Shown piece after piece: positions 1,115-57,017 of a DNA stretch of 57,565 nt (its first letter is position 1; each line of letters opens with the position of its first letter). The stretch covers positions 1-57,565 of the forward strand of contig CAZWJH010000005.1 of NCBI GenBank assembly GCA_964634755.1, given 5' to 3'. Below the pieces are notes generated by a model, which was given only the letters and a program-made list of their open reading frames with translations, was not told where the DNA came from and ran no database searches. The stretch is from an uncultured Clostridia bacterium. GTDB taxonomy: Bacteria > Acidobacteriota > Aminicenantia > JAMOAD01. A program made the position numbers and the translations under genes.

Positions 1115-1996
1115 ATGAGAATTAATGAAAAACTCATAAAAAAGATAGTAATAGAGTTAAAGAAGAGATCGGAAAGTGAACTTTCGGGGGTTTATAAATC
1201 TCTTTTTAAGGGAGAAGGGATAGAGTTTGAAAATTTGAGAGAATATACATATCTGGATGAATATAAAAATATTGAATGGAATACAAGTTCTCGTACGGGG
1301 AAGTTATATGTAAAGGAATTTAAAGAAGAAAGAAATATCCCTGTTTACATTGCTGTAGATATAAGTTCCTCCATGAATGTTTCCTTGAAAGGTAAAAACA
1401 AGATAGAATATGCGGCTGAGCTTTCTGCCATAATTGGAGCTGTTGCAATTAAAAACAGTGATCCGATTTCTCTTACACTCTTTTCTTCAACGATCGAAGC
1501 TTTTTTGCCTCCTATCAGGGATGAAAAAAGATTAATATCAAATTTTATGTTAATTTTAAAGAATAAATACAAGGAAACTGAGAGAACGGATTTTTCCGCT
1601 ATCATAGAATTCTTTTCAAATAGTGTTAAAAGAAGGTCCATAATTTTCATTATATCCGATTTTTTACCTTTTTATTTTGAAAAAAAGTTTCTAGGATTAG
1701 CTAAAAAAAATAATCTTTTTTTCATTATATTGAGAGACCCCTTTGAAGTTACTCCTCCTGATTCAGGTGTTTTTCATCTATATGATCCTGAGAACCATAT
1801 TTTTAAAGAAATAGATTTTTCAGACAAAGAAGCTTTGCACACATACAAAAGTACATATTACACGATGTATTCCCGTTTTAAAAAATCCGTTTTATCATAT
1901 GGGATTGATTTTATAGATATTATAACGGATAAAAAACCTTTTAAAGAGTTTTACTCCTATTTTAAAAAGAGATATAAAGGGGGTAAGAAAATTTGA
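1115..1996 (+). CDS. DUF58 / vWA-like protein
   Basis: GEGIEFENLREYT..DEYKNIEWN, YVKEFKEERN, MIDAS-like DISSSM, IISDF: typical of DUF58. Confidence 0.85.
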   Translation: MRINEKLIKKIVIELKKRSESELSGVYKSLFKGEGIEFENLREYTYLDEYKNIEWNTSSRTGKLYVKEFKEERNIPVYIAVDISSSMNVSLKGKNKIEYAAELSAIIGAVAIKNSDPISLTLFSSTIEAFLPPIRDEKRLISNFMLILKNKYKETERTDFSAIIEFFSNSVKRRSIIFIISDFLPFYFEKKFLGLAKKNNLFFIILRDPFEVTPPDSGVFHLYDPENHIFKEIDFSDKEALHTYKSTYYTMYSRFKKSVLSYGIDFIDIITDKKPFKEFYSYFKKRYKGGKKI

Positions 1997-3585
1997 ATGT
2001 TGATGAGAAAACAGAAATTTCTTTTTATATATTTCTTTTAGGATTTTTAACATCGGGTTTTTTTTCTATTTATGTTAGATTTTTTCTTGTAAATTTTGCT
2101 TTTAATATTGATAAAACTCTTTTTGTTTTATTTATATCTTTACTCTTTCTTCTGGGAGGCTTTTCTATAAAAAGGACAAACATTCAGGAAAAGGATTTTA
2201 AAAATTATATTCTTTGGAACTTTTTTGGATTTTATCTTGTTTTATATGTTTTGAGTTTACAAATTACCTTAAGTCCCTCTTTAATTAATATAAGGAAGAT
2301 CTTCTTCTTTTCCCTTTTGACTCTTCCTCTGCCCTTCTTTTTTTCCGGAGTTGTGCTTAGAAAAATTGTGAAGAGTAAAGAGGAATTTTTTAGCTCAACA
2401 AAACTCTTATTAGTTTCCTTTGCGCTTTCTCCTCTTTTTATATTTTTTATTCTCTCAAAAAAACTTAACTTTTGGTTTTCGGGGGGGGCCCTTGGAATAA
2501 TTTACATCGGCTTTCTTATAGTTTTTATAGAAAAAGGGAAAAGGAGATTAATCCCCATTTTATTTGTTGTTCCTATTTTTGCCTTCATGATTGTTGGGAA
2601 TAAAGCAATCTTAAAAAAAATGGCATCTCCTTATAAACCGAATTTGTACTTTGAATCAGAACAGGGAACTTATTTTATTGTTTTTAGAGATAAAAAGGTA
2701 ATTTTTTACAAAAACCTTTTTCTTTTGCACTCTTTTCCGTTTAAGGGGAGTTCTTGTAAAGAAAAAGTTTTAAAAATCATAAGAAATTCAAAGAAAAATA
2801 TGGGAAGTGTTTTAATAATCGGAGAAAATCCTAAAATAGTGGATATCTTTTTTTCTGCAGGGCTTTTCAAAATCTATTATTCATTTGAAGATAAAGGGTT
2901 AAAAGAAAATATCCTTTATAATTATCCTTCCATTGTAGTTTATCTTAAAAAAGCCGGGGTAAAAATTTTAAATGATAATGCTTTTTTATTTTTAAAGAAA
3001 GACTCTGTTAAGTTTGATTTAATTTTATTTAATATTAATTTGCAGAATTTTGAAGGTATATATAAAGAAAAATATTGTTGTCTTTTAAAAAAATCATTAA
3101 AGAATGATGGAATGATTATTGTAGAGACAGAAGATAATATTAGTAAAGTATACAATAAAAAAGAATTAATTTTTAAATTTAAAAAATATTATTTATTACT
3201 ATTTTTGTTCTTAGGTATAATACCTATTATTCTCCCATTTTTTATTAGAGGAAAAAGAACTCTCTCTTTTTCTCTCTTGAGTGGCTTTATTTTGAATTAC
3301 TTTTTAGCAATGAAACTGTTTTCATTATTATCAGAAAAGCTGTATTCTTATTCCTCTCTTTTACTTTTTATTATCCTCTCTTCCTATTATATTTCCCTTT
3401 TATTTTTTGAGGCTTTTAAACCTTCTATTATTAAAATATCATTATTTTCTTTGCTCTTTTTATTTCTTGTCCTTATCTTCTCTTTATTTTTATATTTAAT
3501 TGCTTTTTTTATATCTCTTTTCTTTTATTCTTTTTTCTATTTTCCTTTGTATTTTAAAAGAATTGCAGGTACAAGCGGGTTTTGA
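1993..3585 (+). CDS. Multi-pass membrane protein with a central degenerate spermidine-synthase/methyltransferase-like domain
   Basis: TM-rich termini; central VLIIGE...LNDNAFLFLKK..KFDLILFN resembles the fused MFS/spermidine synthase family. TTG start overlaps the DUF58 stop. Confidence 0.55.
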   Translation: MNVDEKTEISFYIFLLGFLTSGFFSIYVRFFLVNFAFNIDKTLFVLFISLLFLLGGFSIKRTNIQEKDFKNYILWNFFGFYLVLYVLSLQITLSPSLINIRKIFFFSLLTLPLPFFFSGVVLRKIVKSKEEFFSSTKLLLVSFALSPLFIFFILSKKLNFWFSGGALGIIYIGFLIVFIEKGKRRLIPILFVVPIFAFMIVGNKAILKKMASPYKPNLYFESEQGTYFIVFRDKKVIFYKNLFLLHSFPFKGSSCKEKVLKIIRNSKKNMGSVLIIGENPKIVDIFFSAGLFKIYYSFEDKGLKENILYNYPSIVVYLKKAGVKILNDNAFLFLKKDSVKFDLILFNINLQNFEGIYKEKYCCLLKKSLKNDGMIIVETEDNISKVYNKKELIFKFKKYYLLLFLFLGIIPIILPFFIRGKRTLSFSLLSGFILNYFLAMKLFSLLSEKLYSYSSLLLFIILSSYYISLLFFEAFKPSIIKISLFSLLFLFLVLIFSLFLYLIAFFISLFFYSFFYFPLYFKRIAGTSGF

Positions 3586-4445
3586 TAAGCTTTTCTTAAT
3601 AACTTCTGTCCCTCTTTGGAAATAAGGAATTTAACAAATTTTTCTGCTTTTTCCCTGTTTGGTGCTTTATTTAGAATACTTATTCCGTAAACTACGGATT
3701 TTCCATGTATCGTAACCTTTTTACCGCCTTTTTTAGTAAGCTCCACTTTTGCGGTTTTGTAAAAGTTTTCGTATTTAGGAGAGCTTAAATTTATCTTTTG
3801 AGGCAAAGGTACAAAAGGCAATTTGTGTTGAAGGGCAACAGAGCTGTACTCAAAAGCAGCATCCAACTCTCCTGTTTCAAGAAGGGCAAGAAGCTCCACT
3901 GATTTAGGCCTTATCCATTTATTGCCGATTTTTTTTCTCATTTTTTGATAAAAACCCTTTTCATTGTAATATTTTTCTGCAAGCTGCATAACCATAAGTG
4001 ATCTGTAGCCACAAGGGTCAAGCTCAGGATCCGAGTGCCCTATCATAAAATCCTTTTTCTGGATTATTTTGTACCAATTATCTTTGTTTATTTTCTCTAT
4101 CCATTTTGATTCGGGACTTATTGTAATTACTATTTCATTTGTGGCAAATTCATAGAGAGAGTCTGCAAACTTTGGAAACATCATTGTTTTTATCAACCTG
4201 TAATCTGCTGAAGCCACTATATCAGGAGTTTTCCCGAGCTCTGTTACTCTTCTTATTATTCCTCTTGAACCTCCGGACTCCGTGTAAACTTTAATTCCTG
4301 TTTTTTCAGTAAATTTTTTTGAAATAATTTTAAATGGATATGAGAGAGAACCCGCATGAAAAATTGTGATACTCTTCCCTCCCGCTGAAAATAGAAGAGA
4401 AAGTGAAACCAAAAAAATTGTTAAAATGCTTAAAAATTTTTTCAT
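3537..4445 (-). CDS. wtpA: Tungstate/molybdate ABC transporter substrate-binding protein (WtpA type)
   Basis: Signal peptide; IFHAGSL, ESGGS, DIVASAD, SDPELDPCGYRS, DAAFEYSSVA, YGISIL motifs. Confidence 0.85.
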   Translation of the reverse strand: MKKFLSILTIFLVSLSLLFSAGGKSITIFHAGSLSYPFKIISKKFTEKTGIKVYTESGGSRGIIRRVTELGKTPDIVASADYRLIKTMMFPKFADSLYEFATNEIVITISPESKWIEKINKDNWYKIIQKKDFMIGHSDPELDPCGYRSLMVMQLAEKYYNEKGFYQKMRKKIGNKWIRPKSVELLALLETGELDAAFEYSSVALQHKLPFVPLPQKINLSSPKYENFYKTAKVELTKKGGKKVTIHGKSVVYGISILNKAPNREKAEKFVKFLISKEGQKLLRKAYQNPLVPAILLKYKGK

Positions 4446-4448
4446 TAA

Positions 4449-4552
4449 ATCCTCCTTTCCTAAAATTGGGAGGCAAGGCCGTTTCCAGCTTTACCCTATC
4501 GGTCGGAAAGCATAGCATTTAGCCGTAGCCTTGCCGACTCGGAGTTTTTCAA
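4449..4552 (-). ncRNA. Moco/Tuco riboswitch (molybdenum/tungsten cofactor RNA motif)
   Basis: Minus strand ACTCCGAG...AGGGT..GCTG-GAAA-CGGC..GCCTCCC-AATTTTA-GGAAAGGAGG matches the Moco motif 3' consensus. P1 (ACTCC/GGAG) overlaps the wtpA RBS. Confidence 0.8.
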
Positions 4553-4684
4553 ATAAATAAAAAATTCTATCATAAAAGATTTTTTATTCAAAGGAAAATT
4601 CTAAGAAAATTATTAATAGAGATATTCGTTTGTTTATGGGATTTAAAATATTGATTTTTTTCTGTTTTTTTGCAATACTGAAAT

Positions 4685-5383
4685 ATGAAAAGAGTTGGAA
4701 TTATAGGTGGTATGAGCTGGCAATCGACAATAGAGTATTATAGGGGGCTTAATGCACTTTCAGAAAAGTATGGCGATGGTTTTAGCACAATTGACATTAT
4801 TATTTACTCACTTAACTTTAAAGATGTGGAAAATTTTCAGAGACTCAATGATTGGGATAGTATAGAAAAATTGGTTTCGCTTGCAGCAGTAAATCTTGAA
4901 AGGGCTGGAGCGGATTTTTTAATAATAGCTTCAAATACGATTCATAAAATTTTGCCTTATTTGAAAATGAGAGTGGAGATACCATTTTTAAGCATAATTG
5001 ATGCTGTCGGAGATGAGATTAATAGAAGAGGGGGGAAAAAAGTGGCACTTTTCGGGACAAGATTTATAATGGAAGAAAAATTTTATATTCACGGGCTTAA
5101 AGAGAAAACCAATGCTGAGATTATAGTCCCTGAAAAAAAAGATAGGAATACAATTGACAGAATAATTTTTGAGGAGCTTACCAAGGATATAATAAATGAT
5201 AAATCGAAAAAAGTGCTTTTGAATATCATAAAAAAATTAAAAAAAGAGGGGGCTGATGGAGTTATACTTGGGTGTACTGAACTTCTTTCAATTATCTCTC
5301 AAGAAATATCCCCGATTTCTGTTTTTGATTCAACAAATATTCATATCAAAAAAACCTTTGAATTTGCATTAAAAGATAATTGA
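4685..5383 (+). CDS. Aspartate/glutamate (amino-acid) racemase family, YgeA/RacX-like
   Basis: GIIGGMSWQST, GADFLIIASNTIH, GVILGCTEL. The first catalytic position reads S-N-T (Cys replaced), the second Cys is retained. Confidence 0.88.
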   Translation: MKRVGIIGGMSWQSTIEYYRGLNALSEKYGDGFSTIDIIIYSLNFKDVENFQRLNDWDSIEKLVSLAAVNLERAGADFLIIASNTIHKILPYLKMRVEIPFLSIIDAVGDEINRRGGKKVALFGTRFIMEEKFYIHGLKEKTNAEIIVPEKKDRNTIDRIIFEELTKDIINDKSKKVLLNIIKKLKKEGADGVILGCTELLSIISQEISPISVFDSTNIHIKKTFEFALKDN

Positions 5384-6524: not shown

Positions 6525-9500
6525 ATGAAAAGTTTTAAGTCCATAATTAAAAGCTCTCTTTTTATTTCAGGAGGTACTCTTTTAACAAGACTACTTGGTT
6601 TTGTAAGGGAAATTCTTGCTGCAACTTACTTTGGTAGTGGAAAGCTCTATGATGCTTTTATAATTGCCTTCTCGGTCCCAAACCTTTTCAGAAGAGTTTT
6701 GGGAGAGGAGATGTTTGAAAGAGCTTTTCTTCCTCCTTTTAAAAGGCTTCTCAGCGAAAGCAAAGAAGTGAGAGCTAAAAGATTTTTAATCAAAGCATTT
6801 TTAATTACACTTTTAATCTCTTTAATACTTTTGGCCATACTTTATATTTTTATGCCTCCTCTTATTAAGCTCCTTGCTCCGGGGATGGATCATCAGACTT
6901 TTCTTCTTACTGTTTCCCTTGCTAAAATAATAGCTCCTTTTTTGGTGTTAATTGCAGTGTCCACATTTTTAGGCGCTATCCTTCTTTTTAGCGGAAAAAG
7001 TATAATTTACAGTACTGCTCCCGGTATTATGAATCTTTTAGTTATAATTTTTATGATAATTTTTCATGGTAAAATTGGAATAAAAACGATGGTTTATGCC
7101 TATTTGTTAGGCGCTCTGGGATTTATTATTTATCAAATACCAGCTCTTTTTAAGATAAAAAAAGAAATTGACAAAAAAATAGAAAGAAAAGAGAGTGTAA
7201 GAGTAGGAAAATCCTTTGTTGAAGCTGGAAAGGTGCTTTTATCCTCTATTATTACTAAGAGTGTACAAGTGGTTGATAGGGTAGTGGCATCTCTTATAGG
7301 CGCAGGAGCAATATCATCACTCTGGTATAGTTTCAGAATAATAAATCTTCCGTTTTCAATTTTATCCCTTTCACTTTCACGAAGCATTGCTCCAGAGCTT
7401 TCCAAGATGAGAGGGAAAAAGGATAAGAAAGGATTTAAAGATATAATTGGTTTTGGTATTGATTTGAATCTTATAATTTTGTTCCCTGTAACCCTTTTTA
7501 TTCTCTTTTTTTCAAAAGAAATAGTAGCTCTTTTTTACAAAAGAGGAATGTTTGGGAATACTGCTGTCTCGGAAACCTCTCTTGCTCTTTTTTATTATTC
7601 CTTATCACTTTTGCCAAGCGGATTTATAGCTCTTTTCACAAGAGTTTACTCTTCTCTTGAGGATAACAAACTTCCTCTTTATGCATCCTTTTGGGCTGGT
7701 GGAATTAATATTTTCCTTGATTTTATCCTTTACAGAACTCCTTTAAAACAGGGTGGGATTGCTCTTGCGACTGCAATCGCATTGATAGTTCAGTCTTTAA
7801 TACTATTTTTTTATCTTTCAAAGTATGGGATAAAAATTGAATACAGAAGAGTTTTAAGTACTATTGGGAAACTTATCTTTGCTTCTTTTTTCTATATTCC
7901 TTCCTTGTGGATTTTTAAACTCTTCACTTCTAAGGTAAAAAGCCTTTGGAGTATGCTCTTTTTGCTTGGATTAGCCTTTTTAATATCTTTCTCTATTTAC
8001 GGAATAATTGTTTACGGATTCTGGCGGAAAAGGTATTCGAAGAAAAAAAAGGTTATTCTTACAGGTGGTGGAACGGGTGGTCATGTTTACCCTTCACTTT
8101 CAATATATGAAATCTTAAAAAAGAGAGATTTTGTAGGAGATGTTTTATATCTTGGGATAAGGGGAAGAGCTGAGGAAGTAATAGTCCCTCGAAAGGGTAT
8201 AAGGCTTGAGTTTATAACTTCTTCTCCTTTTTCAGGAAATAAGTTTAAAGTATTGCTTAAGCTTTTTAAAGGGACTCTTGAGGCGATAATTAAAATCATC
8301 AAATTCAAACCGCACATTGTTGTTGCAACTGGAGGATATGTTTCAGCCCCTGTGGTTTTTGGTGCATTTTTGTTAAAGCCATTTTTTAAAATAAAAATAA
8401 TAATTGAAGAGCAAAACTTTGTTCCCGGACTTTTAAATAAACTTACATCTTTAATGGCTAATGTTGTTTTTGTTAATTATCGTGAAACATCTTATTTTAT
8501 CTGGAGTAACCGCTGTGTTCTCGCAGGTTATCCTTTGAGGGATGATTATTACAAAGATTATAATAAATTTGTAATAAGGAGAAAGTTAGGCATCCCTGAG
8601 AATAAATTCTTTATTTTAATTACGGGAGGCTCCCTCGGGGCAAGAAGCATAAACAGAGTTACAGCTTTTTCAATGAAAAAACTTATGGAAAATGAAAATT
8701 ATCACATAGTTCATTCATTGGGTCTTGCCTCTTATGATTATTATGATTCTTATGAGGATACAAAAGAGATTCTAAAAAAGGAGCTTGGTGGACTTTTTGA
8801 TGAAAAAAAATTTGAAGTGAAAGAGGAAAATGGTTTTTATTATAAGGGGGAGAGATTTATTCACAATATTGTTGATTATCAAAAAGCTGCTGATTTAATA
8901 ATAAGCAGAGCAGGAGCAGGGGCTATTTCGGAGATTTCCGCTCTTGGGAAAGCTTCCGTTCTTATTCCGAAAAGAGGGCTTCCGGGAGATCATCAGGAGT
9001 TGAATGCAATAAATTTGGTGGAAAAAGAAGCAGCCGAGATAATATTTGAAAAAATTGATTTTAAGAGTGAAATTGATTACATAGATTGTGGTGAGTTTGT
9101 AAAGACCATAAGCTCTCTTGAAAAGAGCAAAGAAAAATTATCACTTCTTGAAAAAAATATAAAACAGTTTTCAATAAAAGAATCAGACAAGATTATTGCT
9201 GATACTGTTGAAGCTGTTTTTGAAGAAAAAGAGATAAATTATATTTTTGAGATTGTTGAACCAAAGTTTGTAAAATTTACAAGGCAATTTGACAGCCTTA
9301 TTCTGTATCTTGACAAAAATATCAAGGAAAAAGGCTTGAATAATCTTTATGCTAAGCTCTACAATAATAAAATAGAAGAGTACATGAGATCAGAAAATTA
9401 TCTTATTGTGAACAGAGCGGTAAAATTAATAGGAAGTTTAAGAAGAGAGGATCTTTACCCTTGGCTCTATGAAAATTTTACCAATTTTAAGGGGTTTTTA

Positions 9501-9989
9501 AAAAGAAATACTTTAATAGGGCTCAAAAAAGCTGATAAGTATTTTTCTTTTTTTAAGGAATTGATATTAAAAGGTATTGATGATTCTTATTATGAAGTTA
9601 GAAGGGGAGCAATTTCTCTTTATAGAAAATTTTATGATGATATGAGTAATGAGGATGAAATAAAAGAAAAAATTCTTGAAAGATTAATGAAAAAATTTGA
9701 AAGCTTTGAAGTGAAAGCGGAGGCTATAAAAGCATCTGCTCTTTTCCTGAATGAAGATGAATTTTTTGCACTTAACAAGTATAATCTTACTTCAAGGAAT
9801 ATAAGAATCAGGGAAGCTCTTTTGGAAAGTATTGAATGCGGGCTTAATATCGGAAAATTCAAAGATAAAAATAAGGTTAAGAACTTTTTAAGACAGATGC
9901 TTATTACCACATCGGAGTTTAAACCTGAATTCAGGGTTAGGGAAAAATATATGAGAGTCGTTAAAAAATTGGAAGGGATAAAGGAATGA
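6525..9989 (+). CDS. murJ-murG: Fusion protein: lipid II flippase MurJ + MurG glycosyltransferase + C-terminal HEAT-repeat domain
   Basis: aa ~1-500 MurJ (TRLLGFVRE, YDAF, PNLFRR). aa ~510-900 MurG (GGGTGGH, GGYVSAP, EQN..PG, GGSLGA, SRAGA, DHQELNA). Helical repeats follow (YYEVRRGAISL, FEVKAEAIKA, NIRIREALLES). One continuous ORF. Confidence 0.9.
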   Translation: MKSFKSIIKSSLFISGGTLLTRLLGFVREILAATYFGSGKLYDAFIIAFSVPNLFRRVLGEEMFERAFLPPFKRLLSESKEVRAKRFLIKAFLITLLISLILLAILYIFMPPLIKLLAPGMDHQTFLLTVSLAKIIAPFLVLIAVSTFLGAILLFSGKSIIYSTAPGIMNLLVIIFMIIFHGKIGIKTMVYAYLLGALGFIIYQIPALFKIKKEIDKKIERKESVRVGKSFVEAGKVLLSSIITKSVQVVDRVVASLIGAGAISSLWYSFRIINLPFSILSLSLSRSIAPELSKMRGKKDKKGFKDIIGFGIDLNLIILFPVTLFILFFSKEIVALFYKRGMFGNTAVSETSLALFYYSLSLLPSGFIALFTRVYSSLEDNKLPLYASFWAGGINIFLDFILYRTPLKQGGIALATAIALIVQSLILFFYLSKYGIKIEYRRVLSTIGKLIFASFFYIPSLWIFKLFTSKVKSLWSMLFLLGLAFLISFSIYGIIVYGFWRKRYSKKKKVILTGGGTGGHVYPSLSIYEILKKRDFVGDVLYLGIRGRAEEVIVPRKGIRLEFITSSPFSGNKFKVLLKLFKGTLEAIIKIIKFKPHIVVATGGYVSAPVVFGAFLLKPFFKIKIIIEEQNFVPGLLNKLTSLMANVVFVNYRETSYFIWSNRCVLAGYPLRDDYYKDYNKFVIRRKLGIPENKFFILITGGSLGARSINRVTAFSMKKLMENENYHIVHSLGLASYDYYDSYEDTKEILKKELGGLFDEKKFEVKEENGFYYKGERFIHNIVDYQKAADLIISRAGAGAISEISALGKASVLIPKRGLPGDHQELNAINLVEKEAAEIIFEKIDFKSEIDYIDCGEFVKTISSLEKSKEKLSLLEKNIKQFSIKESDKIIADTVEAVFEEKEINYIFEIVEPKFVKFTRQFDSLILYLDKNIKEKGLNNLYAKLYNNKIEEYMRSENYLIVNRAVKLIGSLRREDLYPWLYENFTNFKGFLKRNTLIGLKKADKYFSFFKELILKGIDDSYYEVRRGAISLYRKFYDDMSNEDEIKEKILERLMKKFESFEVKAEAIKASALFLNEDEFFALNKYNLTSRNIRIREALLESIECGLNIGKFKDKNKVKNFLRQMLITTSEFKPEFRVREKYMRVVKKLEGIKE

Positions 9990-11092
9990 TAGAATTATTA
10001 ATTGCTCTTTTAAAAATTGCCGGAATAAATTACGGCTTTTTCAGATTAATGAACTATATAACATTCAGAGCTATAATGGCAATGGGAACAGCATTGCTCT
10101 TCAGCTTGATTTTTGGGTTTAAGTTTATTCTTTTTCTTTACAAAAAGAAGTTCAGAGACACATCAGGAGAAACTCTTTCCATAAACGCTTATTCCAAAAG
10201 GGGAACGCCAACCGCTGGAGGGACTTTAATTATTTCTTCAACTCTGTTATCTTTGGTTTTGTGGGGGGATTTTACAAATTCGTTTTTTCTTGTGCTTATA
10301 TCAGCTTTCCTTTATTTCGGATTTGTAGGGTTTTTAGATGATTTCCAGAAATCAAGATTCAAATCATCCCTTTCGGGTTTAAGCCAGCTTGGGAAAACTA
10401 TTCTTATGCTTGCATACATAGTACCCTTTTCCTTTTATTATATCTCACCTCTTTGTCCTATCTCACAAAAATTAAAAACACTTATTTATATCCCCTTTTA
10501 TAAAAATCCTGTGCTTGATTTGGGTGAAATCGGATTTGTACTTTTTATAATATTTGTAATGTTTTCCGTTATAAATTCTGTTAATATGACGGATGGTATG
10601 GATGGTCTTTTGAGTGGGGTTTCTGTTCTCACAATAGGAGTTTACATAGTTTTCGCATATATTATAGGTAATTCCCTTGCATCTTCCCACTATCTTTTTC
10701 CATATATAATGGGTGTGGAGGAGGTGACTGTATTTGGTGCGGCTTTGATAGGAGCTATTTTGGGTTTTCTCTGGTACAATAGCTATCCTGCTGAAATTTT
10801 TATGGGAGATACGGGTTCACTTGCAATTGGTAGTGTGATTGCCCTTATGCTATTTTTCACAAAACAGGAAATGCTTTTTATCATAAGCGGAGGGGTTTTT
10901 ATAGTTGAGATTTTTACATCTCTTTTACAGGAAAAGATAGGAGACAGGTTGGGCAGACGAATGATTTACAGAGCTCCGATTCATCATACCTTAACCCATG
11001 AAGGGATAGCCGAGCCAAAAGCTGTGATAAGAATCTGGATAGTTGCCATAATATTAGCAATAATTTCACTTTTGTCTTTGAAAGTCAGATGA
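9986..11092 (+). CDS. mraY: Phospho-N-acetylmuramoyl-pentapeptide transferase homolog (divergent)
   Basis: YITFRA, KRGTPTAGG, GFLDD, NSVNMTDGMDGL, FMGDTGS, APIHHT. ATGA overlap with the upstream fusion. Confidence 0.88.
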   Translation: MIELLIALLKIAGINYGFFRLMNYITFRAIMAMGTALLFSLIFGFKFILFLYKKKFRDTSGETLSINAYSKRGTPTAGGTLIISSTLLSLVLWGDFTNSFFLVLISAFLYFGFVGFLDDFQKSRFKSSLSGLSQLGKTILMLAYIVPFSFYYISPLCPISQKLKTLIYIPFYKNPVLDLGEIGFVLFIIFVMFSVINSVNMTDGMDGLLSGVSVLTIGVYIVFAYIIGNSLASSHYLFPYIMGVEEVTVFGAALIGAILGFLWYNSYPAEIFMGDTGSLAIGSVIALMLFFTKQEMLFIISGGVFIVEIFTSLLQEKIGDRLGRRMIYRAPIHHTLTHEGIAEPKAVIRIWIVAIILAIISLLSLKVR

Positions 11093-12146: not shown

Positions 12147-12609
12147 CATATAGCCTATTAAAACCTTACTCCTTTAATAATAGAAGTAAATAATAATCTC
12201 ATATAATCTTATATTTTTTGTATGTGTATTATAGAAATATTTCAAATTTAAAATTTTAAAAGAGGAATATAGTGAATTTACAAGTTGAAAAATATAAAGT
12301 CATAGCTTGTTTTATTTATTTAGGAAGACTCTTTTTTATTCGGAACAAGTTTGAAAAGCTATTTGTTTGCAAGCCTCGTAAAATATTAGTCATTAACATC
12401 GCAGTGTTTAAGGTTTTTAATTTCATAAGGGTTACATTACAGATAGACAAATCTGTAATTCATAAAATTAAAAACATCAAAGCAACCGAATCTCTATTTC
12501 AAAGAACATTAAGTTCTGAAACATAGGCAAAAGAGTGTATTCTTTTAGATAGAAACAATTGAAGAAAAGCGAGACCCCAAGTACTACTAATAATAAGATG
12601 GAGGAAATG

Positions 12610-13161
12610 ATGAGAAAGAATATTAAATTAGGTTTTTGTCCTACAATGGCACATTATGCTGAAATAATAGAAAAGGAGGTTAAAGGGATAGAGATCATTA
12701 CTTATCCCGGTGCTGCAATTGTTATGAGAGCTCTTTTAAACAAGATGATTGATGTGGCACTTATAGGAAGAGAGGCTTACTCTGATGAAATTAATGCTAA
12801 TATTTTAAAAAGAAGGCTTAAAAACGGATACACCTTGGTTTATCGTGAGAAGGTTGCAATTCCGGAAGAAAAATTAAATGAAGTTCCCGTTAAAACTTAT
12901 CTTTATAAAGAGATTGTCGAAAAAATATTGCCAAATCCTGATAATTTAATATACTGTGAAACTCTTGAGGGGTGTGATAATCAGGAAAATGATCTCCCTC
13001 TATTAATAGATTGGAAGGATTTTTCAGATAAGTATGAGCTTTTAATTCCTATAAATTCAAACGGTGAAAAAACTCCTGCTTTTAGAGCTCCTGTTATTTA
13101 TTATAACAAAAAGGTCTCTGAAGAAATAATAGGAAAAATATCATCTATTATTAAAGATTAA
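12610..13161 (+). CDS. Hypothetical protein (possible periplasmic-binding-protein-like fold; GFCPTM motif)
   Basis: Clean ORF with GGAGG SD before ATG 12610; AAIVMRALLNKMIDVALIGR resembles a type 2 PBP segment. Confidence 0.55.
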   Translation: MRKNIKLGFCPTMAHYAEIIEKEVKGIEIITYPGAAIVMRALLNKMIDVALIGREAYSDEINANILKRRLKNGYTLVYREKVAIPEEKLNEVPVKTYLYKEIVEKILPNPDNLIYCETLEGCDNQENDLPLLIDWKDFSDKYELLIPINSNGEKTPAFRAPVIYYNKKVSEEIIGKISSIIKD

Positions 13162-51667: not shown

Positions 51668-52432
51668 ATGCTTCAAGTGAAGAAGTTGACAAAAAAATTC
51701 GGGCATTATCCTGCTGTTGATAGGGTTAATTTTACTATTGAAAAGGGAGAGATTGTCGGTTATTTGGGGCCCAATGGGGCCGGAAAATCAACCACAATAA
51801 AGATGCTATCCGGCTTGCTTGAACCAACTGAGGGTGAAATTTTTTATAATGACAAAAATATTTACGATGATTTGATTTCATACAAAGGGAAATTGGGCTA
51901 TGTCCCGGAAGAAAGCGAAATCTACCCGCATCTTAGCGGTTTTGAGTATTTGCAGATGGTAGGGAGACTCAGAGGTCTGGAAGAGAATATTATAACAGAA
52001 AAAGCCGAACAGCTTTTAGAGCTCTTTAAACTTTACGGGAGTATGCACTTTTACATATCATTATATTCTAAGGGGATGAGGCAAAAAATACTGATTATCG
52101 CCGCACTTTTGCACAATCCGGAAATTCTTTTGCTTGATGAGCCATTGTCCGGTCTTGATATTGCGACTGTTTTAGTGTTTAAGGATGTTTTAAAAAAACT
52201 TGCCGGTGCCGGGAAAATGATACTTTACAGTTCCCATATTCTTGAGGTTGTGGAGAATTTGTGTGATAGGGTTATAATAATTCACAAGGGTAAAATACTT
52301 GCTGATGATTCTGTTAAAAATCTAAAAGAGTTGAGCAAAAAACCATCTCTGGAAGAAGTTTTCAGCAATCTTGTTTTAAAGGAAGATACTGAGAGGATTG
52401 CAGATGAAATGTTCAAAACAATAGTGGGGTAG
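51668..52432 (+). CDS. ABC transporter ATP-binding protein (drug/export type)
   Basis: GPNGAGKST, Q-loop variant YVPEE, signature variant YSKGM, LLLDEP, SSH. Confidence 0.92.
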   Translation: MLQVKKLTKKFGHYPAVDRVNFTIEKGEIVGYLGPNGAGKSTTIKMLSGLLEPTEGEIFYNDKNIYDDLISYKGKLGYVPEESEIYPHLSGFEYLQMVGRLRGLEENIITEKAEQLLELFKLYGSMHFYISLYSKGMRQKILIIAALLHNPEILLLDEPLSGLDIATVLVFKDVLKKLAGAGKMILYSSHILEVVENLCDRVIIIHKGKILADDSVKNLKELSKKPSLEEVFSNLVLKEDTERIADEMFKTIVG

Positions 52433-54141
52433 TGAGGAAAAGAATAGAGGAAGTTATCAAAAGGGTAAAGATTCTTGTAAATCTTTTTTTTCTTAGATTC
52501 TTTAGAAATGAGAATATGCCCTTTGAAAATGAAGCTGAAGCAAAATTTATCTTTATCTTAGTTTTATTTTCCGTATTAAGTCTTTTTTTCTCTTTTAATC
52601 TTTTGTTTAAATATGTTTTTGTTCCGGAAAACGGAAACTCATGGCAGGAAAAGTCTCAAATTATTTTAATTTTTATGCTTGTAATAGGCTTTATCACAGT
52701 ACTTGAGTGGGATGTGCTTTTGCCGGACAAAAGTGATTTTTATGTTTTAGGTCCATTACCGCTTGGTAAAGGTATAATACTTTCTTCAAAATTTATTAGC
52801 TTTTTATCCTTTGTGGGGCTTTTTGCTTTTACAACCAATTTTTTATCAGCTCTTTTTTTCCCTGTTTTCTTAGCTGCATTTTACTCCCACACTTCTCCGT
52901 TTTTCTTTATCCTTTTTAGTATTGTTCATTTAATCATTTCATTTCTTGCAAATATTTTCACATTCTTTTTCTTTCTATTTATAAGCAATCTCCTTTTTAT
53001 TTTATTCCCATTTAATTTTTTTAAAAAGGTTTCTTCAATGGTTAGAGGGTTGGTTATGATAGCCATTCTTTCAATCTATGCATTTCTTCCTAAGCTTTAT
53101 TCTTTTTTACCGGAGATGGTGGATAGGGGAGATAAAAGAATTTTTTATTTTCCTCATCTCTGGTTTACAGGATTTTATGAAAATCTTCTGGGTAGAAGTA
53201 ATGATTTGACAGTTAAAATGAGTAAGCTTTCTATTCTCTCTGTGACTGTCATCCTTTTTCTTTCTTTTGTAACTTATGGAATTGCTTTTTACAAAAATAC
53301 CAGATCAGTTTCTAAGAGTAGTGAAGGTTCTTCTTTTTCAAAAAAACATCCTTCATGCGCCATTTCCCGTATTTTTTATAATCTTCTCTTTAGATCTCAA
53401 CCTGAAAGAGCGATTTTCTATTTTCTGAAAAAGACTTTAAAAAGAAGTGAAAAACACAGAGTTAAGTTATACAGTTTTCTGGCAGTATCAATCGGAATAA
53501 TTATCTCAAAATATCTTACGGAGCAAAATCTATTAAAAAATGTTTCGAATTTCAAAGAATGGAGTAAGGTAATATATTCAGCGCCTTTTATAGTTTGGTT
53601 TTTTTATATGGCGGGGTTGAGATCCCTTGCAAATAATCCGTATAATCCTTCGGCCAACTGGATTTTCAAAATTACAGAAAGAAAAGATAAGGGAATTTAT
53701 CGTCGTGCAATTCATAAGTTTAATATTTTACAAAATATTATCCCCATCAGTTTGTTCTTGCTTTTGTTTTATTTATTCGTATGGGATATTGAAAAATCTC
53801 TGATAATCACTTTTTTCTCTTTTTTTGTAGCTTTTTTCATAGAAGAAATACTTTTTTTTAATATTAAAAAAATACCTTATACATGCATATCACTTCCTGA
53901 TAAGGGAAATTTAAAAATGCTTTTCATCCCTTATTTTCTTCTTTTCCTTTTTTATACCCAGACAATGGGATATTTTTCTTATTGGTTTGTTGAATATCCG
54001 CATTATTTTAAAAATTTAATATTTATAGGTGTTGCTCTTCTGCTTCTCCTTTTTGTTTTTAAGAGAGTTTTTGAAACAAAAGACTTTTCTCTGGTGTTTG
54101 AAGAAGAGCCGGAACCTGAATTTTTGTCTCTTGAATTATAA
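52432..54141 (+). CDS. Putative ABC transporter permease (about 12 TM)
   Basis: Multi-pass; GTG start overlaps the ATPase stop; internally repeated architecture. Confidence 0.7.
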   Translation: MRKRIEEVIKRVKILVNLFFLRFFRNENMPFENEAEAKFIFILVLFSVLSLFFSFNLLFKYVFVPENGNSWQEKSQIILIFMLVIGFITVLEWDVLLPDKSDFYVLGPLPLGKGIILSSKFISFLSFVGLFAFTTNFLSALFFPVFLAAFYSHTSPFFFILFSIVHLIISFLANIFTFFFFLFISNLLFILFPFNFFKKVSSMVRGLVMIAILSIYAFLPKLYSFLPEMVDRGDKRIFYFPHLWFTGFYENLLGRSNDLTVKMSKLSILSVTVILFLSFVTYGIAFYKNTRSVSKSSEGSSFSKKHPSCAISRIFYNLLFRSQPERAIFYFLKKTLKRSEKHRVKLYSFLAVSIGIIISKYLTEQNLLKNVSNFKEWSKVIYSAPFIVWFFYMAGLRSLANNPYNPSANWIFKITERKDKGIYRRAIHKFNILQNIIPISLFLLLFYLFVWDIEKSLIITFFSFFVAFFIEEILFFNIKKIPYTCISLPDKGNLKMLFIPYFLLFLFYTQTMGYFSYWFVEYPHYFKNLIFIGVALLLLLFVFKRVFETKDFSLVFEEEPEPEFLSLEL

Positions 54142-55519: not shown

Positions 55520-55590
55520 ATTTAATGAAAAATCCAAATATTGTTCTTGATTTATTATTAGTGTTTTATTATAATAACCTACTTTGTTGT

Positions 55591-55662
55591 GGCGGTGTAG
55601 CTCAGGGGTAGAGCAAGCGGCTCATATCCGCTGCGTCGGGGGTTCAAATCCCTCCATCGCCA
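55591..55662 (+). tRNA. tRNA with CAT anticodon (probably elongator tRNA-Met)
   Basis: GGCGGTG/CATCGCC acceptor (G1-C72, so not initiator), AGCGG-CTCATAT-CCGCT, GGTTCAAATCC; CCA not encoded. Confidence 0.92.
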
Positions 55663-55673
55663 CTTTTTTCATT

Positions 55674-57017
55674 ATGATTAAAATTTTTCTAAAATTCAGA
55701 AATTTTGTGATTTCAAATAAATTAATAGAAGAAGGAGATAGTATTTTACTATCATTTTCCGGAGGGCCTGATTCCACAGCTCTTGCACTTCTTTTGAAAA
55801 AACTTCAAAAATACATTAACTTTGAGCTATCTCTCTTTTACTTGAATCATGGTTTAAGGGATGATAGTGATGAAGAGGAAAAAAAAGTCAAAGAGTTTGC
55901 GAACAGGTTTGAATTAAGACTTTTCTCAAGAAAAGTTGAGATAAAAGCTGGAAAAGCTAACATTGAGGAAATGGCAAGGGCAATAAGGTATGAAATATTA
56001 AAGGAAATAGCTGAAAAGCATGGATTTAACAAAATTGCCACAGCGCATAATTTAGATGATCAGATAGAGACTTTTTTAATCAGGCTTTTAAGAGGGAGTG
56101 GTTCAAAGGGATTATCCTCAATTCCAATTATAAGAGAAGGTTTTATAATAAGACCTCTTTTGGAGATAAGAAAAAGGGAGATTCTTGATTATCTTAAAAT
56201 GATGAGAATAGAATATGTTACTGATAAAACAAACTTTGATACAAAACTTTTAAGAAACAAAATAAGGCATAGTTTAATTCCACTTCTTGAAAATGAATAC
56301 AATCCTGCAATTGTTAAAATATTAAAAAATGAGATAGAAATTTTAAGAGAAAATGAAGGCTTTATAAAGGAAAAGGCAAAAGAAGTAAAGGGGGATATTA
56401 TAAAAGATAAAAAGCTCAATTTAAAAATATTGAAAAAAGAGCATCCTGCAATAAGGAGCTTTCTTATAAGAGAGTACATAAGAGAACTCAGAGGCTCTTT
56501 AAGAAAAATTACATACTCTCATGTAAAATCAATCTTGGAATTGAAAAAAGGGCAAAAAGTATTTATACCTGATCTTATTCTTATAAGGGAGTATGATTTT
56601 GTTTTGCCGTATATTCAGAAAAAAGTTAAGTATTATGAATACAAAGTGAAAAATGTACCTTTCAGATTAAACATTAAAGAGTTGGAAAAAACTTTTGAAT
56701 TTAGTATGGAAAAGAGTCTCGGGGAGTTTGATGATAAAACCCGTGCTTTTCTTGATTTTGATAAGATAAAGTTTCCGATTATCGTAAGAAAAAGAAAAAA
56801 AGGAGATAGGTATTCTCCTCTCGGGATGAAGGGAAAAACAAAAAAGATAAAGGATATTTTCAATGATATGAAAATAAGCAAAAGCGAAAGAGATTTTTCA
56901 CCTGTTTTTACTGATGCCGAAGGTGAAATACTTTGGGTGAAAGGATTAAGGATAAATGATAAATATAAAGTGGACGAAAGTACTGAAAATATTTTAAGAA
57001 TAGAGGAAATAGAATAA
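55674..57017 (+). CDS. tilS: tRNA(Ile)-lysidine synthetase
   Basis: SFSGGPDS, NHGLR, ARAIRY, TAHNLDDQIET.L.RL.RG, RPLL, RNKIRH, C-terminal GDR..P.G. True start ATG 55674. Confidence 0.95.
   Translation: MIKIFLKFRNFVISNKLIEEGDSILLSFSGGPDSTALALLLKKLQKYINFELSLFYLNHGLRDDSDEEEKKVKEFANRFELRLFSRKVEIKAGKANIEEMARAIRYEILKEIAEKHGFNKIATAHNLDDQIETFLIRLLRGSGSKGLSSIPIIREGFIIRPLLEIRKREILDYLKMMRIEYVTDKTNFDTKLLRNKIRHSLIPLLENEYNPAIVKILKNEIEILRENEGFIKEKAKEVKGDIIKDKKLNLKILKKEHPAIRSFLIREYIRELRGSLRKITYSHVKSILELKKGQKVFIPDLILIREYDFVLPYIQKKVKYYEYKVKNVPFRLNIKELEKTFEFSMEKSLGEFDDKTRAFLDFDKIKFPIIVRKRKKGDRYSPLGMKGKTKKIKDIFNDMKISKSERDFSPVFTDAEGEILWVKGLRINDKYKVDESTENILRIEEIE

What the first reader, a model, noticed from the sequence alone, without database searches (positions are those of the whole stretch)
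9986..11092. MraY with altered substrate-recognition motifs
Seen: the catalytic DD, NxTDGxDG and FMGDTGS motifs are intact. The HHH motif is HHT (APIHHTLTHEG versus canonical APIHHHFELKG). The first loop reads SINAYSKRGTPTAGG versus PESHFSKRGTPTMGG. The segment after LQ is EKIGD rather than V..FK. The fused MurJ also changes the canonical ADRLME segment to SFRIIN while keeping the Arg. Established: the HHH loop contacts the sugar/peptide part of the donor and nucleoside inhibitors. Inference: co-ordinated divergence that could reflect a different UDP-sugar(-peptide) donor or natural resistance to tunicamycin/muraymycin-type antibiotics.
Basis: partly seen in the sequence, partly recalled or inferred. 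Interest (0 to 1): 0.65.

Follow-up and report, generated by a model that had tools for sequence, protein, structure and literature searches.

The report
HEAT-partnered MraY with fused MurJ–MurG
This gene is a working-looking MraY (first membrane step of cell-wall synthesis) from a large, apparently undescribed subfamily: its altered motifs are family-wide, and the gene always sits directly behind a HEAT-repeat protein, usually fused to MurG and here also to MurJ.

Summary
ORF 9986-11092 encodes a 368-aa MraY with intact DD, NxTDGxDG and FMGDTGS motifs but HHT instead of HHH. Its Loop A and the segment after LQ are also altered.

It is not a private oddity. About 120 homologues (46-86% identical) carry the same signature, and they split from canonical MraY in 30/30 bootstraps.

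Among 172 MraY loci, 150 canonical ones had no HEAT neighbour, and 148 of the 148 that could be read had HHH. The other 21 loci (19 distinct) all have a HEAT-repeat ORF ending 0-100 nt upstream of mraY. It is usually the C-terminal domain of a MurG. In three loci it stands alone, and in two lineages MurJ is fused in, in two different domain orders.

Every residue known to bind Mg2+, uridine or nucleoside inhibitors is conserved. The third His is not a documented contact, so intrinsic antibiotic resistance is not supported. A changed donor cannot be excluded.

Best reading: a physically coupled MraY / MurG-HEAT / MurJ lipid-II assembly line, in which the remodelled cytoplasmic loops fit the HEAT partner.

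Not resolved: whether these genomes also keep a canonical dcw mraY.

The parts
9986..11092 (+). MraY-family phospho-sugar transferase, 368 aa, of the HEAT-associated subfamily
   Evidence: TIGR00445 at 254 bits (cut-off 192), PF00953. About 35% identical to E. coli and Aquifex MraY structures. About 120 subfamily homologues.
10982..10990 (+). HHT in Loop E (H333 H334 T335, equivalent to Aquifex H324 H325 H326)
   Evidence: The first His is invariant in both classes. The second is 84% H in the subfamily. The third is S/T/A/N/G/E/D in the subfamily and 100% H in canonical MraY.
10178..10222 (+). Loop A segment SINAYSKRGTPTAGG. The canonical residues R60, G63, P64, H67 and M76 (Aquifex numbering) are replaced; K70, G72, T73, P74, T75, G77 and G78 are kept.
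   Evidence: The closest ~98 homologues have no PF10555 (MraY_sig1) hit.
10925..10945 (+). LQEKIGD at the cytoplasmic end of TM9b. Q305 is kept. Canonical V306, I307, F309 and K310 become E/D, K, G and a variable residue.
10337..10342 (+). Catalytic DD (D118 D119, equivalent to Aquifex D117 D118)
10583..10606 (+). NMTDGMDG, the Loop C uridine pocket (N190, D193, G194, D196)
   Evidence: PMC6606608.
10799..10819 (+). FMGDTGS in Loop D: F262 uracil stack and D265 Mg2+ ligand
   Evidence: PMC6606608.
9986..9989 (+). ATGA: the stop codon of the fusion gene overlaps the mraY start codon, which suggests translational coupling
6525..9989 (+). 1154-aa MurJ-MurG-HEAT fusion protein
   Evidence: About 31 clusters share this architecture.
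6525..8024 (+). MurJ flippase domain (aa 1-500). Equivalents of R18, R24, D39, R52 and R270 are kept. SFRIIN lies at 7329-7346.
   Evidence: TIGR01695 at 302 bits (cut-off 235.6). Alignment to E. coli MurJ.
8040..9209 (+). MurG (GT28) domain, aa 506-895. Carries GGTGGH (8067), EQN (8409), GYPLR (8526), GGS (8625) and HQELNA (8991).
   Evidence: PF03033 and PF04101. TIGR01133 at 217 bits, below the 250 cut-off. AF2 model with pLDDT 91.6; best Foldseek hits are E. coli and P. aeruginosa MurG. Invariant residues.
9210..9986 (+). C-terminal HEAT-like alpha-solenoid, aa 896-1154
   Evidence: AF2 pLDDT 92.3, all-helical. Foldseek finds only generic HEAT, alphaRep, PP2A-A and AP-2 folds at E >= 3e-3. 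Weak HEAT_2 hit, E 0.0028. Invariant N963, K967, G990, R994, N995, Y1022, E1024, R1026, E1062, V1063, R1096. The domain was found only at the C-terminus of MurG or MurJ-MurG proteins, or alone next to mraY.

Best explanation
The ORF is a catalytically competent MraY. It belongs to a distinct, old subfamily defined by three things:
- a relaxed HHH motif (H-H/Y-x)
- a rewritten Loop A and TM9b/Loop E region (consensus Q-[ED]-K-x-G-x-x-x-G-R-R-x-x-[YF]-R-A-P-x-H)
- a HEAT-repeat protein encoded immediately upstream, always

In most lineages the HEAT domain is the C-terminal domain of a MurG. In this lineage the MurJ flippase is also fused to the front, and the fusion gene overlaps mraY by 4 nt.

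Most likely mechanism: MraY transfers phospho-MurNAc-peptide from the UDP donor to undecaprenyl phosphate, giving lipid I. The tethered MurG adds GlcNAc, giving lipid II. The fused MurJ flips the product. The result is a stoichiometric, physically coupled three-step machine. The HEAT solenoid would be the adaptor that docks on the remodelled cytoplasmic loops of MraY. On this reading HHT, Loop A and EKIGD are interface or partner-specific changes rather than changes of chemistry.

Shown here: subfamily membership, the motif statistics, the invariant HEAT adjacency, the fusion architectures, and conservation of the catalytic and ligand-contact residues.

Inferred: enzymatic activity, the nature of the donor, HEAT-MraY contact, and channelling.

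The subfamily is a separate clade from canonical MraY of the same phyla, and this part of the conclusion is firm. I judge it about 65% likely that it coexists with a canonical dcw mraY in Syntrophobacteraceae, Gemmatimonadota and Myxococcota. For the window's own lineage I put this at about 50%.
For: Subfamily:
- About 120 homologues of ~368 aa carry HH[STAGEND] and LQEKxG..GRR.
- Mean identity is 53% within the subfamily, 54% among canonical MraY, and 38% between the two.
- The subfamily/canonical split was recovered in 30/30 NJ bootstraps.

Conserved catalytic and ligand residues (Aquifex numbering): K70, T75, D117, D118, N187, N190, D193, G194, D196, F262, G264, D265, Q305, A321, H324. All are >=95% conserved in both classes.

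Context:
- 21 of 172 MraY loci have a HEAT ORF ending 0-100 nt upstream of mraY, and all 21 are subfamily members.
- None of the 150 canonical loci has one.
- The one subfamily locus without a HEAT ORF is cut off at the contig end.
- A standalone HEAT protein sits next to mraY, with no MurG, in L096, L173 and L172.
- Two independent MurJ fusion orders exist: MurJ-MurG-HEAT and MurG-MurJ-HEAT. In L095 a separate murJ follows mraY.

Partners look canonical:
- The MurG fold and its UDP-GlcNAc-binding residues are kept.
- The MurJ domain scores above its equivalog cut-off and keeps the essential Arg residues.

Other:
- ATGA overlap between the fusion gene and mraY.
- BacA/UppP lies two genes upstream in relative L088.
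Against: - No experiment or complex model was possible, so HEAT-MraY contact is inferred from gene adjacency only.
- The residues lost here (Loop A R60/G63/P64/H67, M76, H326, E328) are invariant in canonical MraY, and the HHH loop has been proposed to give MraY its specificity for UDP-MurNAc-pentapeptide (PMC5039524). A changed donor is therefore a live alternative.
- The MurG domains fall below the TIGR01133 cut-off (210-233 bits against 250) and carry a family-wide GNP to GYP change at the cleft.
- I could not show whether a canonical mraY coexists in any one genome.
Confidence: 0.5

Rival explanations
1. Altered donor. The subfamily transfers something other than phospho-MurNAc-pentapeptide, for example a MurNAc carrying a different, shorter or absent peptide, or another UDP-HexNAc derivative. 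The dedicated MurG and MurJ would then complete and flip a lipid-linked product that is not canonical lipid II.
For: - Residues invariant in canonical MraY are lost in Loop A and Loop E, and new charges appear in the TM9b/Loop E pocket (V306 to E/D, I307 to K, M320 to R). This pocket holds the peptide-like part of muraymycin and mureidomycin (PMC6606608).
- The HHH loop has been proposed as a specificity determinant (PMC5039524).
- The MurG partner scores below its equivalog cut-off and has GNP to GYP at the cleft.
- A dedicated flippase has been recruited three separate ways.
- L089 lies next to O-antigen-type genes, and L096 has a sugar nucleotidyltransferase downstream.
Against: - No Mur-ligase-like or other precursor gene is conserved next to the module in 19 distinct loci, and no other dcw gene lies within 10 kb in the 11 loci tested for that.
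- The MraY scores above the MraY equivalog cut-off and far below the WecA and archaeal models.
- The MurG UDP-GlcNAc residues and the MurJ cavity arginines are canonical.
- Position 326 is simply unconstrained (S/T/A/N/G/E/D, and H in L008) rather than switched to a new conserved residue.
Confidence: 0.25
2. Nothing special. This is simply the lineage's ordinary housekeeping MraY. It has drifted at positions that do not matter, and the HEAT/MurG/MurJ neighbourhood is just a rearranged cell-wall operon.
For: - It passes the MraY equivalog model.
- It sits among housekeeping genes in every locus.
- No catalytic role has been assigned to the third His (PMC5039524; it is absent from PMC6606608).
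- No second mraY was seen for this lineage, though only about 57 kb of it is available.
Against: - The changes hit about 18 positions that are >=90% conserved in canonical MraY of many phyla.
- The clade is separated in 30/30 bootstraps and contains Desulfobacterota, Gemmatimonadota, Myxococcota and candidate phyla, while canonical dcw-type MraY from Desulfobacterota and Bacteroidota fall on the other side.
- The association with a HEAT domain is perfect, and that domain occurs in no other architecture.
Confidence: 0.15
3. Intrinsic resistance to nucleoside antibiotics (tunicamycin, muraymycin, mureidomycin or caprazamycin class), achieved by reshaping the Loop E / TM9b pocket.
For: Residues flanking the TM9b/Loop E hot spot are changed (V302S, V306E, I307K, F309G, M320R, H326T). 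Inhibitors other than capuramycin use this pocket.
Against: - Every residue named as an inhibitor contact is conserved: K70, T75, N190, D193, G194, D196, F262, G264, D265, Q305, A321, H324, H325.
- No antibiotic biosynthesis genes lie nearby in any locus.
- The subfamily is spread over anaerobic sediment and hydrothermal-vent lineages and is tied to a HEAT partner, which resistance does not explain.
Confidence: 0.04

Closest known systems
Canonical MraY (E. coli 8g01, Aquifex aeolicus 4j72; TIGR00445)
   Same: Same 10-TM PNPT fold family. E-values to solved MraY structures are 8e-64 to 8e-60. The DDD catalytic triad, uridine pocket, Q305, A321, H324 and H325 are the same. It scores above the equivalog cut-off.
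   Different: - Only 34-40% identical to canonical MraY.
- The third His and E328 of PxHHHxExxG are lost.
- The Loop A signature (PF10555) is lost.
- The TM9b end is rewritten.
- It is not located between murF and murD in a dcw cluster.
- It is always preceded by a HEAT-domain ORF.
MurG2 of Streptomyces/Kitasatospora, an alternative lipid II synthase encoded outside the dcw cluster (PMC8092295, listed)
   Same: Precedent for a second, non-dcw copy of a membrane-step cell-wall enzyme that can do the canonical job.
   Different: MurG2 is, from its abstract, described only as a MurG substitute; I did not read its full text. Here the MurG carries a HEAT domain and is paired with a matched MraY subfamily, in other phyla.
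Natural Mur chimeras: MurE-MurF, MurG-MurC, MurC-Ddl, MurC-MurB, MurD-FtsW, and MraY-MurG mentioned (PMC10214165)
   Same: Gene fusions of peptidoglycan-precursor enzymes, read as evidence for multi-enzyme complexes and fixed stoichiometry.
   Different: That survey names no fusion with MurJ and none with a HEAT domain. It also excluded unidentified species, which is where these proteins occur.
Planctopirus limnophila mraY1/mraY2 (PMC10632474)
   Same: A cultured bacterium annotated with two mraY genes, each individually dispensable. This shows that two MraY per genome is possible.
   Different: The gene table links neither copy to murG (Plim_1131 mraY against Plim_0205 murG). I could not obtain the sequences, so no relationship to this subfamily is shown.
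Archaeal pseudomurein MraY-like transferases (NF053644) and WecA/GPT GlcNAc-1-P transferases (TIGR02380)
   Same: Same PNPT superfamily. These are known examples of MraY relatives with a different donor.
   Different: The window protein scores 97.5 against a cut-off of 450 for the archaeal model, and 34 against 326 for WecA. It is clearly on the MraY side.

Membership tests
MraY (phospho-MurNAc-pentapeptide translocase, TIGR00445 / PF00953) | Profile score above the curated equivalog cut-off | tested here: met
   254.2 bits against 192.05. Other subfamily members score 254-310; a canonical control scores 440.
MraY (phospho-MurNAc-pentapeptide translocase, TIGR00445 / PF00953) | Catalytic Asp triad (Aquifex D117, D118, D265) and uridine pocket (K70, N190, D193, G194, D196, F262) | tested here: met
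   All present: D118, D119, D275, K71, N200, D203, G204, D206, F272. All are >=95% conserved in the subfamily.
MraY (phospho-MurNAc-pentapeptide translocase, TIGR00445 / PF00953) | Complete Loop E motif PxHHHxExxG | tested here: not met
   The window has P-I-H-H-T-L-T-H-E-G. The third His and the Glu are replaced. Canonical MraY have 100% H and 95% E at these positions, and HHH in 148/148 readable loci.
MraY (phospho-MurNAc-pentapeptide translocase, TIGR00445 / PF00953) | Loop A signature (PF10555 MraY_sig1; GP..H..K.GTPTMGG) | tested here: not met
   No PF10555 hit. It is also absent from the ~98 closest homologues. R60, G63, P64, H67 and M76 are replaced.
MraY (phospho-MurNAc-pentapeptide translocase, TIGR00445 / PF00953) | Position in the dcw cluster (murF-mraY-murD-ftsW-murG) | tested here: not met
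   No murE, murF, murD, ftsW, murC or ftsQAZ within 10 kb in the 11 subfamily loci tested. In the canonical loci where a murG lies within reach (most of the first 75), it is roughly 1.3-5 kb downstream, mostly 2.5-3.7 kb.
MraY (phospho-MurNAc-pentapeptide translocase, TIGR00445 / PF00953) | Lipid I synthesis from UDP-MurNAc-pentapeptide and C55-P | not testable with these tools
   Needs a biochemical assay or complementation.
HEAT-associated MraY subfamily (defined here) | HEAT-repeat ORF or domain encoded immediately upstream of mraY | tested here: met
   HEAT domain at 9210-9986, with a 4-nt overlap onto mraY. True of 21/21 subfamily loci that have upstream sequence and of 0/150 canonical loci.
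HEAT-associated MraY subfamily (defined here) | Signature Q-[ED]-K-x-G...G-R-R-x-x-[YF]-R-A-P-x-H-[HY]-x, with D at Aquifex position 57, S at 302 and R at 320 | tested here: met
   Window residues D58, S312, E316, K317, G319, R324, R325, R329, H333, H334, T335.
MurG (TIGR01133, GT28) | Profile score above the equivalog cut-off | tested here: not met
   216.9 against 250.25. Other subfamily partners score 210-233. NCBI names them only 'glycosyltransferase'.
MurG (TIGR01133, GT28) | GT-B fold with the G-loop GGTGGH, EQN, R164-type Arg, GGS, E269-type Glu and Q..NA that bind UDP-GlcNAc | tested here: met
   The invariant residues are shared with 43 canonical MurG. AF2 pLDDT 91.6. Foldseek TM-score (target-normalised) 0.80-0.91 to E. 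coli and P. aeruginosa MurG.
MurJ (TIGR01695) | Profile score above the cut-off, and the essential cavity residues R18, R24, R52 and R270 | tested here: met
   302.1 against 235.55. The alignment to E. coli MurJ keeps all four Arg and D39.
WecA/TagO/GPT GlcNAc-1-P transferases (TIGR02380) | Profile score above the cut-off | tested here: not met
   34.1 against 326.
Archaeal pseudomurein MraY-like (NF053644) | Profile score above the cut-off | tested here: not met
   97.5 against 450, and only the C-terminal half matches.

The most novel reading that the evidence does not exclude
The HEAT-MraY / MurG / MurJ module is a second lipid-linked glycan(-peptide) pathway that has not been recognised before. 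It would run in parallel to classical lipid II synthesis in at least five phyla, using a donor or making a product that differs from lipid II. The HEAT subunit would select or deliver that donor to a re-tooled MraY active-site rim.
Probability: 0.25. Interest if true: 0.85.

Novelty: new variant of a known kind. Interest (0 to 1): 0.6.

Why it matters
MraY, MurG and MurJ are the three essential membrane steps of peptidoglycan precursor synthesis, and all are antibiotic targets. Whether they work as a physical complex is still debated.

This locus gives natural fusion evidence for that coupling. MurJ and MurG are fused in two independent domain orders, and both forms are tied to a matched MraY.

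It also identifies a HEAT-repeat subunit that is strictly co-encoded with one MraY subfamily. As far as the searchable literature shows, this partner has not been described.

It shows that the 'invariant' HHH motif and Loop A signature are dispensable in a whole natural clade. That is useful for understanding what those residues do and for predicting inhibitor spectrum.

If the clade turns out to use another donor, it would define a new cell-envelope pathway.

One carrier, Desulforhabdus amnigena, has a named-species genome and should be available in culture, so the questions are testable.

Tried and rejected
1. Same-genome test for a canonical mraY. This failed.
- The metagenome scan found no contig carrying both types.

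2. Plasmid location. Only canonical mraY turned up, on large records that look like chromosomes filed as plasmids.

3. Planctopirus limnophila mraY1/mraY2 as a known example. The gene table shows mraY and murG far apart and gives no sequences.

4. Literature searches for MraY paralogues, MurG-HEAT or MurJ-MurG fusions found nothing relevant. Syntrophobacter fumaroxidans proteome supplements have no MraY or MurG entries.

5. Expression. No RNA runs hold the locus.

6. A specific function for the HEAT domain from its fold. Only generic solenoid matches at E >= 3e-3.

7. The adjacent racemase as MurI. Rejected: it is an Asp-type amino-acid racemase (TIGR00035 at 179 bits), not glutamate racemase (34 bits against a cut-off of 147).

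8. Conserved neighbours other than HEAT, MurG and MurJ. None found. panB/panC/apbA/coaBC recur in four lineages but not in the others.

9. Promoter and terminator scans were uninformative in this AT-rich DNA.
Full report
**Observation**

ORF 9986-11092 (+) encodes a 368-aa protein. It matches PF00953 and the NCBIfam MraY equivalog TIGR00445 at 254 bits against a cut-off of 192. It aligns end to end with the solved E. coli and Aquifex MraY structures, with E-values of 8e-64 to 8e-60.

- DD at 10337-10342
- NMTDGMDG at 10583-10606
- FMGDTGS at 10799-10819
- HHT at 10982-10990
- SINAYSKRGTPTAGG at 10178-10222
- LQEKIGD at 10925-10945

The upstream ORF 6525-9989 (1154 aa) contains a MurJ domain. 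Its SFRIIN aligns with E. coli ADRLME, keeping the R270 equivalent and also the R18, R24, D39 and R52 equivalents.

**It is a subfamily trait, not a private mutation**

The closest ~120 database proteins (46-86% identical, almost all ~368 aa) carry HH followed by S/T/A/G/E/N/D, and the LQ[ED]KxG..GRR segment. The closest ~98 lack the Pfam MraY_sig1 hit.

I aligned 120 of these with 76 canonical MraY: 74 taken from genome loci, plus E. coli and Aquifex.
- Mean identity is 53% within the subfamily, 54% among canonical MraY, and 38% between them.
- A neighbour-joining tree recovers the subfamily/canonical split in 30 of 30 bootstraps.
- In canonical loci the motif is HHH in 148 of the 148 that could be read.
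- In the subfamily the first His is invariant, the second is 84% H and 12% Y, and the third is H in about 1%. One Gemmatimonadota member keeps HHH and another has HIA.

**What is conserved and what is changed (Aquifex numbering)**

Conserved at >=95% in both classes: K70, G72-T75, G77, G78, D117, D118, N187, N190, D193, G194, D196, F262, G264, D265, Q305, R316, A321, P322, H324. This set includes the Mg2+/catalytic Asp triad and the uridine pocket. Apart from H325 (100% H in canonical MraY, 84% in the subfamily, and kept in the window as H334), it also covers every inhibitor contact listed in the structural survey of nucleoside inhibitors. That paper never mentions H326 (PMC6606608).

Changed or relaxed, although >=90% conserved in canonical MraY:
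- Loop A: R60 to G, G63, P64, H67 to A/T/V, and M76 to A/G. Q57, which is 88% conserved, becomes D.
- A199 to L/V.
- Cytoplasmic end of TM9b: S301 to T, V302 to S, V306 to E/D, K310 to variable. F309, which is 83% conserved, becomes G. Position 307 is variable in canonical MraY but is K in 97% of the subfamily.
- Loop E: M320 to R, H326 to a variable residue, E328 to T/Q.

A review records the proposal that about 13 MraY-specific residues, including the HHH loop, give specificity for UDP-MurNAc-pentapeptide. It also notes that no catalytic role has been assigned even to H324 (PMC5039524).

**Genomic context is the key finding**

I collected 172 loci holding an MraY gene: the window, loci found by protein look-up, 80 from one-genome-per-species contigs and 80 from metagenomes.

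- In the canonical loci of the first (genome) scan where a murG lies within reach, it is roughly 1.3-5 kb downstream of mraY, mostly 2.5-3.7 kb, which is the dcw order.
- Twenty-one loci (19 distinct) instead have a HEAT-repeat coding region ending 0-100 nt upstream of mraY. All of them are subfamily members.
- None of the 150 canonical loci has this.
- The single subfamily locus without it is cut off at the contig start.
- No other dcw gene lies within 10 kb of the module in the 11 loci tested.

The carriers are labelled Desulforhabdus amnigena and many Syntrophobacteraceae, Gemmatimonadota, Myxococcota, Candidatus Delongbacteria, candidate division CSSED10-310, and 'Acidobacteria' and 'Bacteroidales' MAGs. 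The window itself comes from hydrothermal-vent metagenomes.

**Architectures**

The HEAT domain appears in five arrangements:
- Usually it is the C-terminal ~260-300 aa of a MurG protein of 650-740 aa.
- In the window's lineage, about 31 protein clusters are MurJ-MurG-HEAT of ~1150-1180 aa.
- In another lineage the order is MurG(2-394)-MurJ(520-979)-HEAT(1087-1301), again followed by mraY.
- In L095 a separate murJ follows mraY.
- In L096, L173 and the fragment L172, a standalone HEAT protein of 255-295 aa directly precedes mraY, with no MurG nearby.

An exhaustive search of 1.84 billion cluster representatives with the window's HEAT domain found 102 proteins. In every one the domain is C-terminal in proteins of these size classes or in short proteins, and never in another architecture.

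In the window, the fusion gene's stop codon overlaps the mraY start codon (ATGA).

**The partners look canonical**

- MurG domain. It keeps GGTGGH, EQN, the R164-type Arg, GGS, the E269-type Glu and Q..NA. It models with pLDDT 91.6 and pTM 0.86. It superposes on E. coli and P. aeruginosa MurG with target-normalised TM-scores of 0.80-0.91. It does score below the MurG equivalog cut-off (217 against 250; relatives 210-233). It also carries a family-wide GNP to GYP change.
- HEAT domain. It models as an all-helical solenoid with pLDDT 92.3. It matches only generic HEAT, alphaRep, PP2A-A and AP-2 repeats at E >= 3e-3. It has 11 residues invariant between the window-type proteins and the Syntrophobacteraceae proteins.
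- MurJ domain. It scores above its equivalog cut-off.

**Interpretation**

The strict co-occurrence of the HEAT domain with this MraY clade, with or without MurG, points to MraY as the partner of HEAT. The repeated, independent recruitment of MurG and MurJ by fusion or adjacency argues that all three act on one lipid-linked intermediate.

My best reading is a physically coupled lipid I, lipid II, flipping machine. In it the remodelled cytoplasmic rim of MraY (Loop A, the TM9b end and Loop E, including HHT) serves the HEAT partner.

This is inference from gene organisation. No complex model or assay was possible.

It lacks any conserved companion precursor gene, and it sits awkwardly with canonical MurG and MurJ residues. 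I give it about 25%.

Intrinsic antibiotic resistance is not supported, because all documented contacts are intact.

**Unresolved: paralogue or sole copy?**

The clade is separate from canonical MraY of the same phyla, so it is not the ordinary orthologue. I could not examine any single genome for both copies.

- Within Syntrophobacteraceae the module sits in conserved synteny: purD-purE-sua5-module-apbA-panB. That indicates stable vertical inheritance.
- In the window's lineage, the fusion of what may be the only MurJ, together with BacA/UppP two genes upstream in relative L088, is compatible with the module being the main pathway there.

**Comparison with known systems, and novelty**

NCBI's pipeline names the MraY as ordinary MraY, the MurG-HEAT proteins as 'glycosyltransferase', and the triple fusion as 'MurJ'.

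Full-text searches found no paper describing a MurG-HEAT fusion, a MurJ-MurG fusion, or a HEAT partner of MraY. The published survey of Mur chimeras does not list them (PMC10214165).

The closest precedents are MurG2 of actinomycetes (PMC8092295) and the two mraY genes of Planctopirus limnophila (PMC10632474). Neither is shown to be related.

I therefore class this as a new variant of a known kind.

Noticed in passing
window 4436-4556 (-), upstream of ORF 3537-4445 (-): A molybdenum/tungsten-cofactor (Moco) riboswitch (RF01055, 71 bits, E 3e-15) lies directly in front of a periplasmic solute-binding protein (SBP_bac_11). This is probably a molybdate/tungstate uptake gene under riboswitch control.
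   Followed up: no
window 4685-5383 (+): An Asp-type amino-acid racemase lies two genes upstream of the MurJ-MurG-HEAT gene (TIGR00035 at 179 bits; not glutamate racemase MurI, 34 bits against a cut-off of 147). It could supply a D-amino acid, but it is not conserved next to the module in other lineages.
   Followed up: partly
window 55591-55663 (+) and ORF 55584-57017 (+): A tRNA with anticodon CAT, called tRNA-Met by ARAGORN, overlaps the mechanically predicted TTG start of a TilS (tRNA-Ile lysidine synthetase) ORF. The real tilS start must lie further downstream. TilS acts on the CAT-anticodon tRNA-Ile2, so this tRNA may be its own substrate rather than tRNA-Met.
   Followed up: no
L001/L002, L091, L087, L088, L173: Pantothenate/CoA genes (panB, panC, panD, apbA/panE, coaBC) lie within about 6 kb of the HEAT-MraY module in four unrelated lineages: Syntrophobacteraceae, Delongbacteria, the 'Acidobacteria'-labelled MAG, and L173. 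They are absent in the window and in seven other loci. This may be coincidence or a remnant of old synteny.
   Followed up: partly
L089 10001-13939 (protein P0273): A second fusion order, MurG-MurJ-HEAT (1312 aa), has an unassigned linker of about 120 aa between MurG and MurJ (aa ~395-520). It sits just downstream of O-antigen-type genes: Wzy_C, a Wzm/Wzt ABC transporter, GT1 and an acyltransferase.
   Followed up: partly
L096 9051-9935 and 11883-13172; L173 8001-8837: Standalone HEAT proteins directly precede subfamily MraY genes whose Loop E is even more divergent (HFS in L096, HDT in L173). In L096 a sugar nucleotidyltransferase (PF13562) follows mraY.
   Followed up: partly
L088 8264-9070 and 133-1170: In a relative that has the same triple fusion, undecaprenyl-diphosphate phosphatase (BacA/UppP) is two genes upstream of the module on the same strand, and MreB is 9 kb upstream.
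   Followed up: no
window 1993-3585 (+), 12559-13161 (+), 52432-54141 (+): Three sizeable ORFs (530, 200 and 569 aa) have no Pfam match, or only a marginal one. The first follows a DUF58/VWA gene.
   Followed up: no
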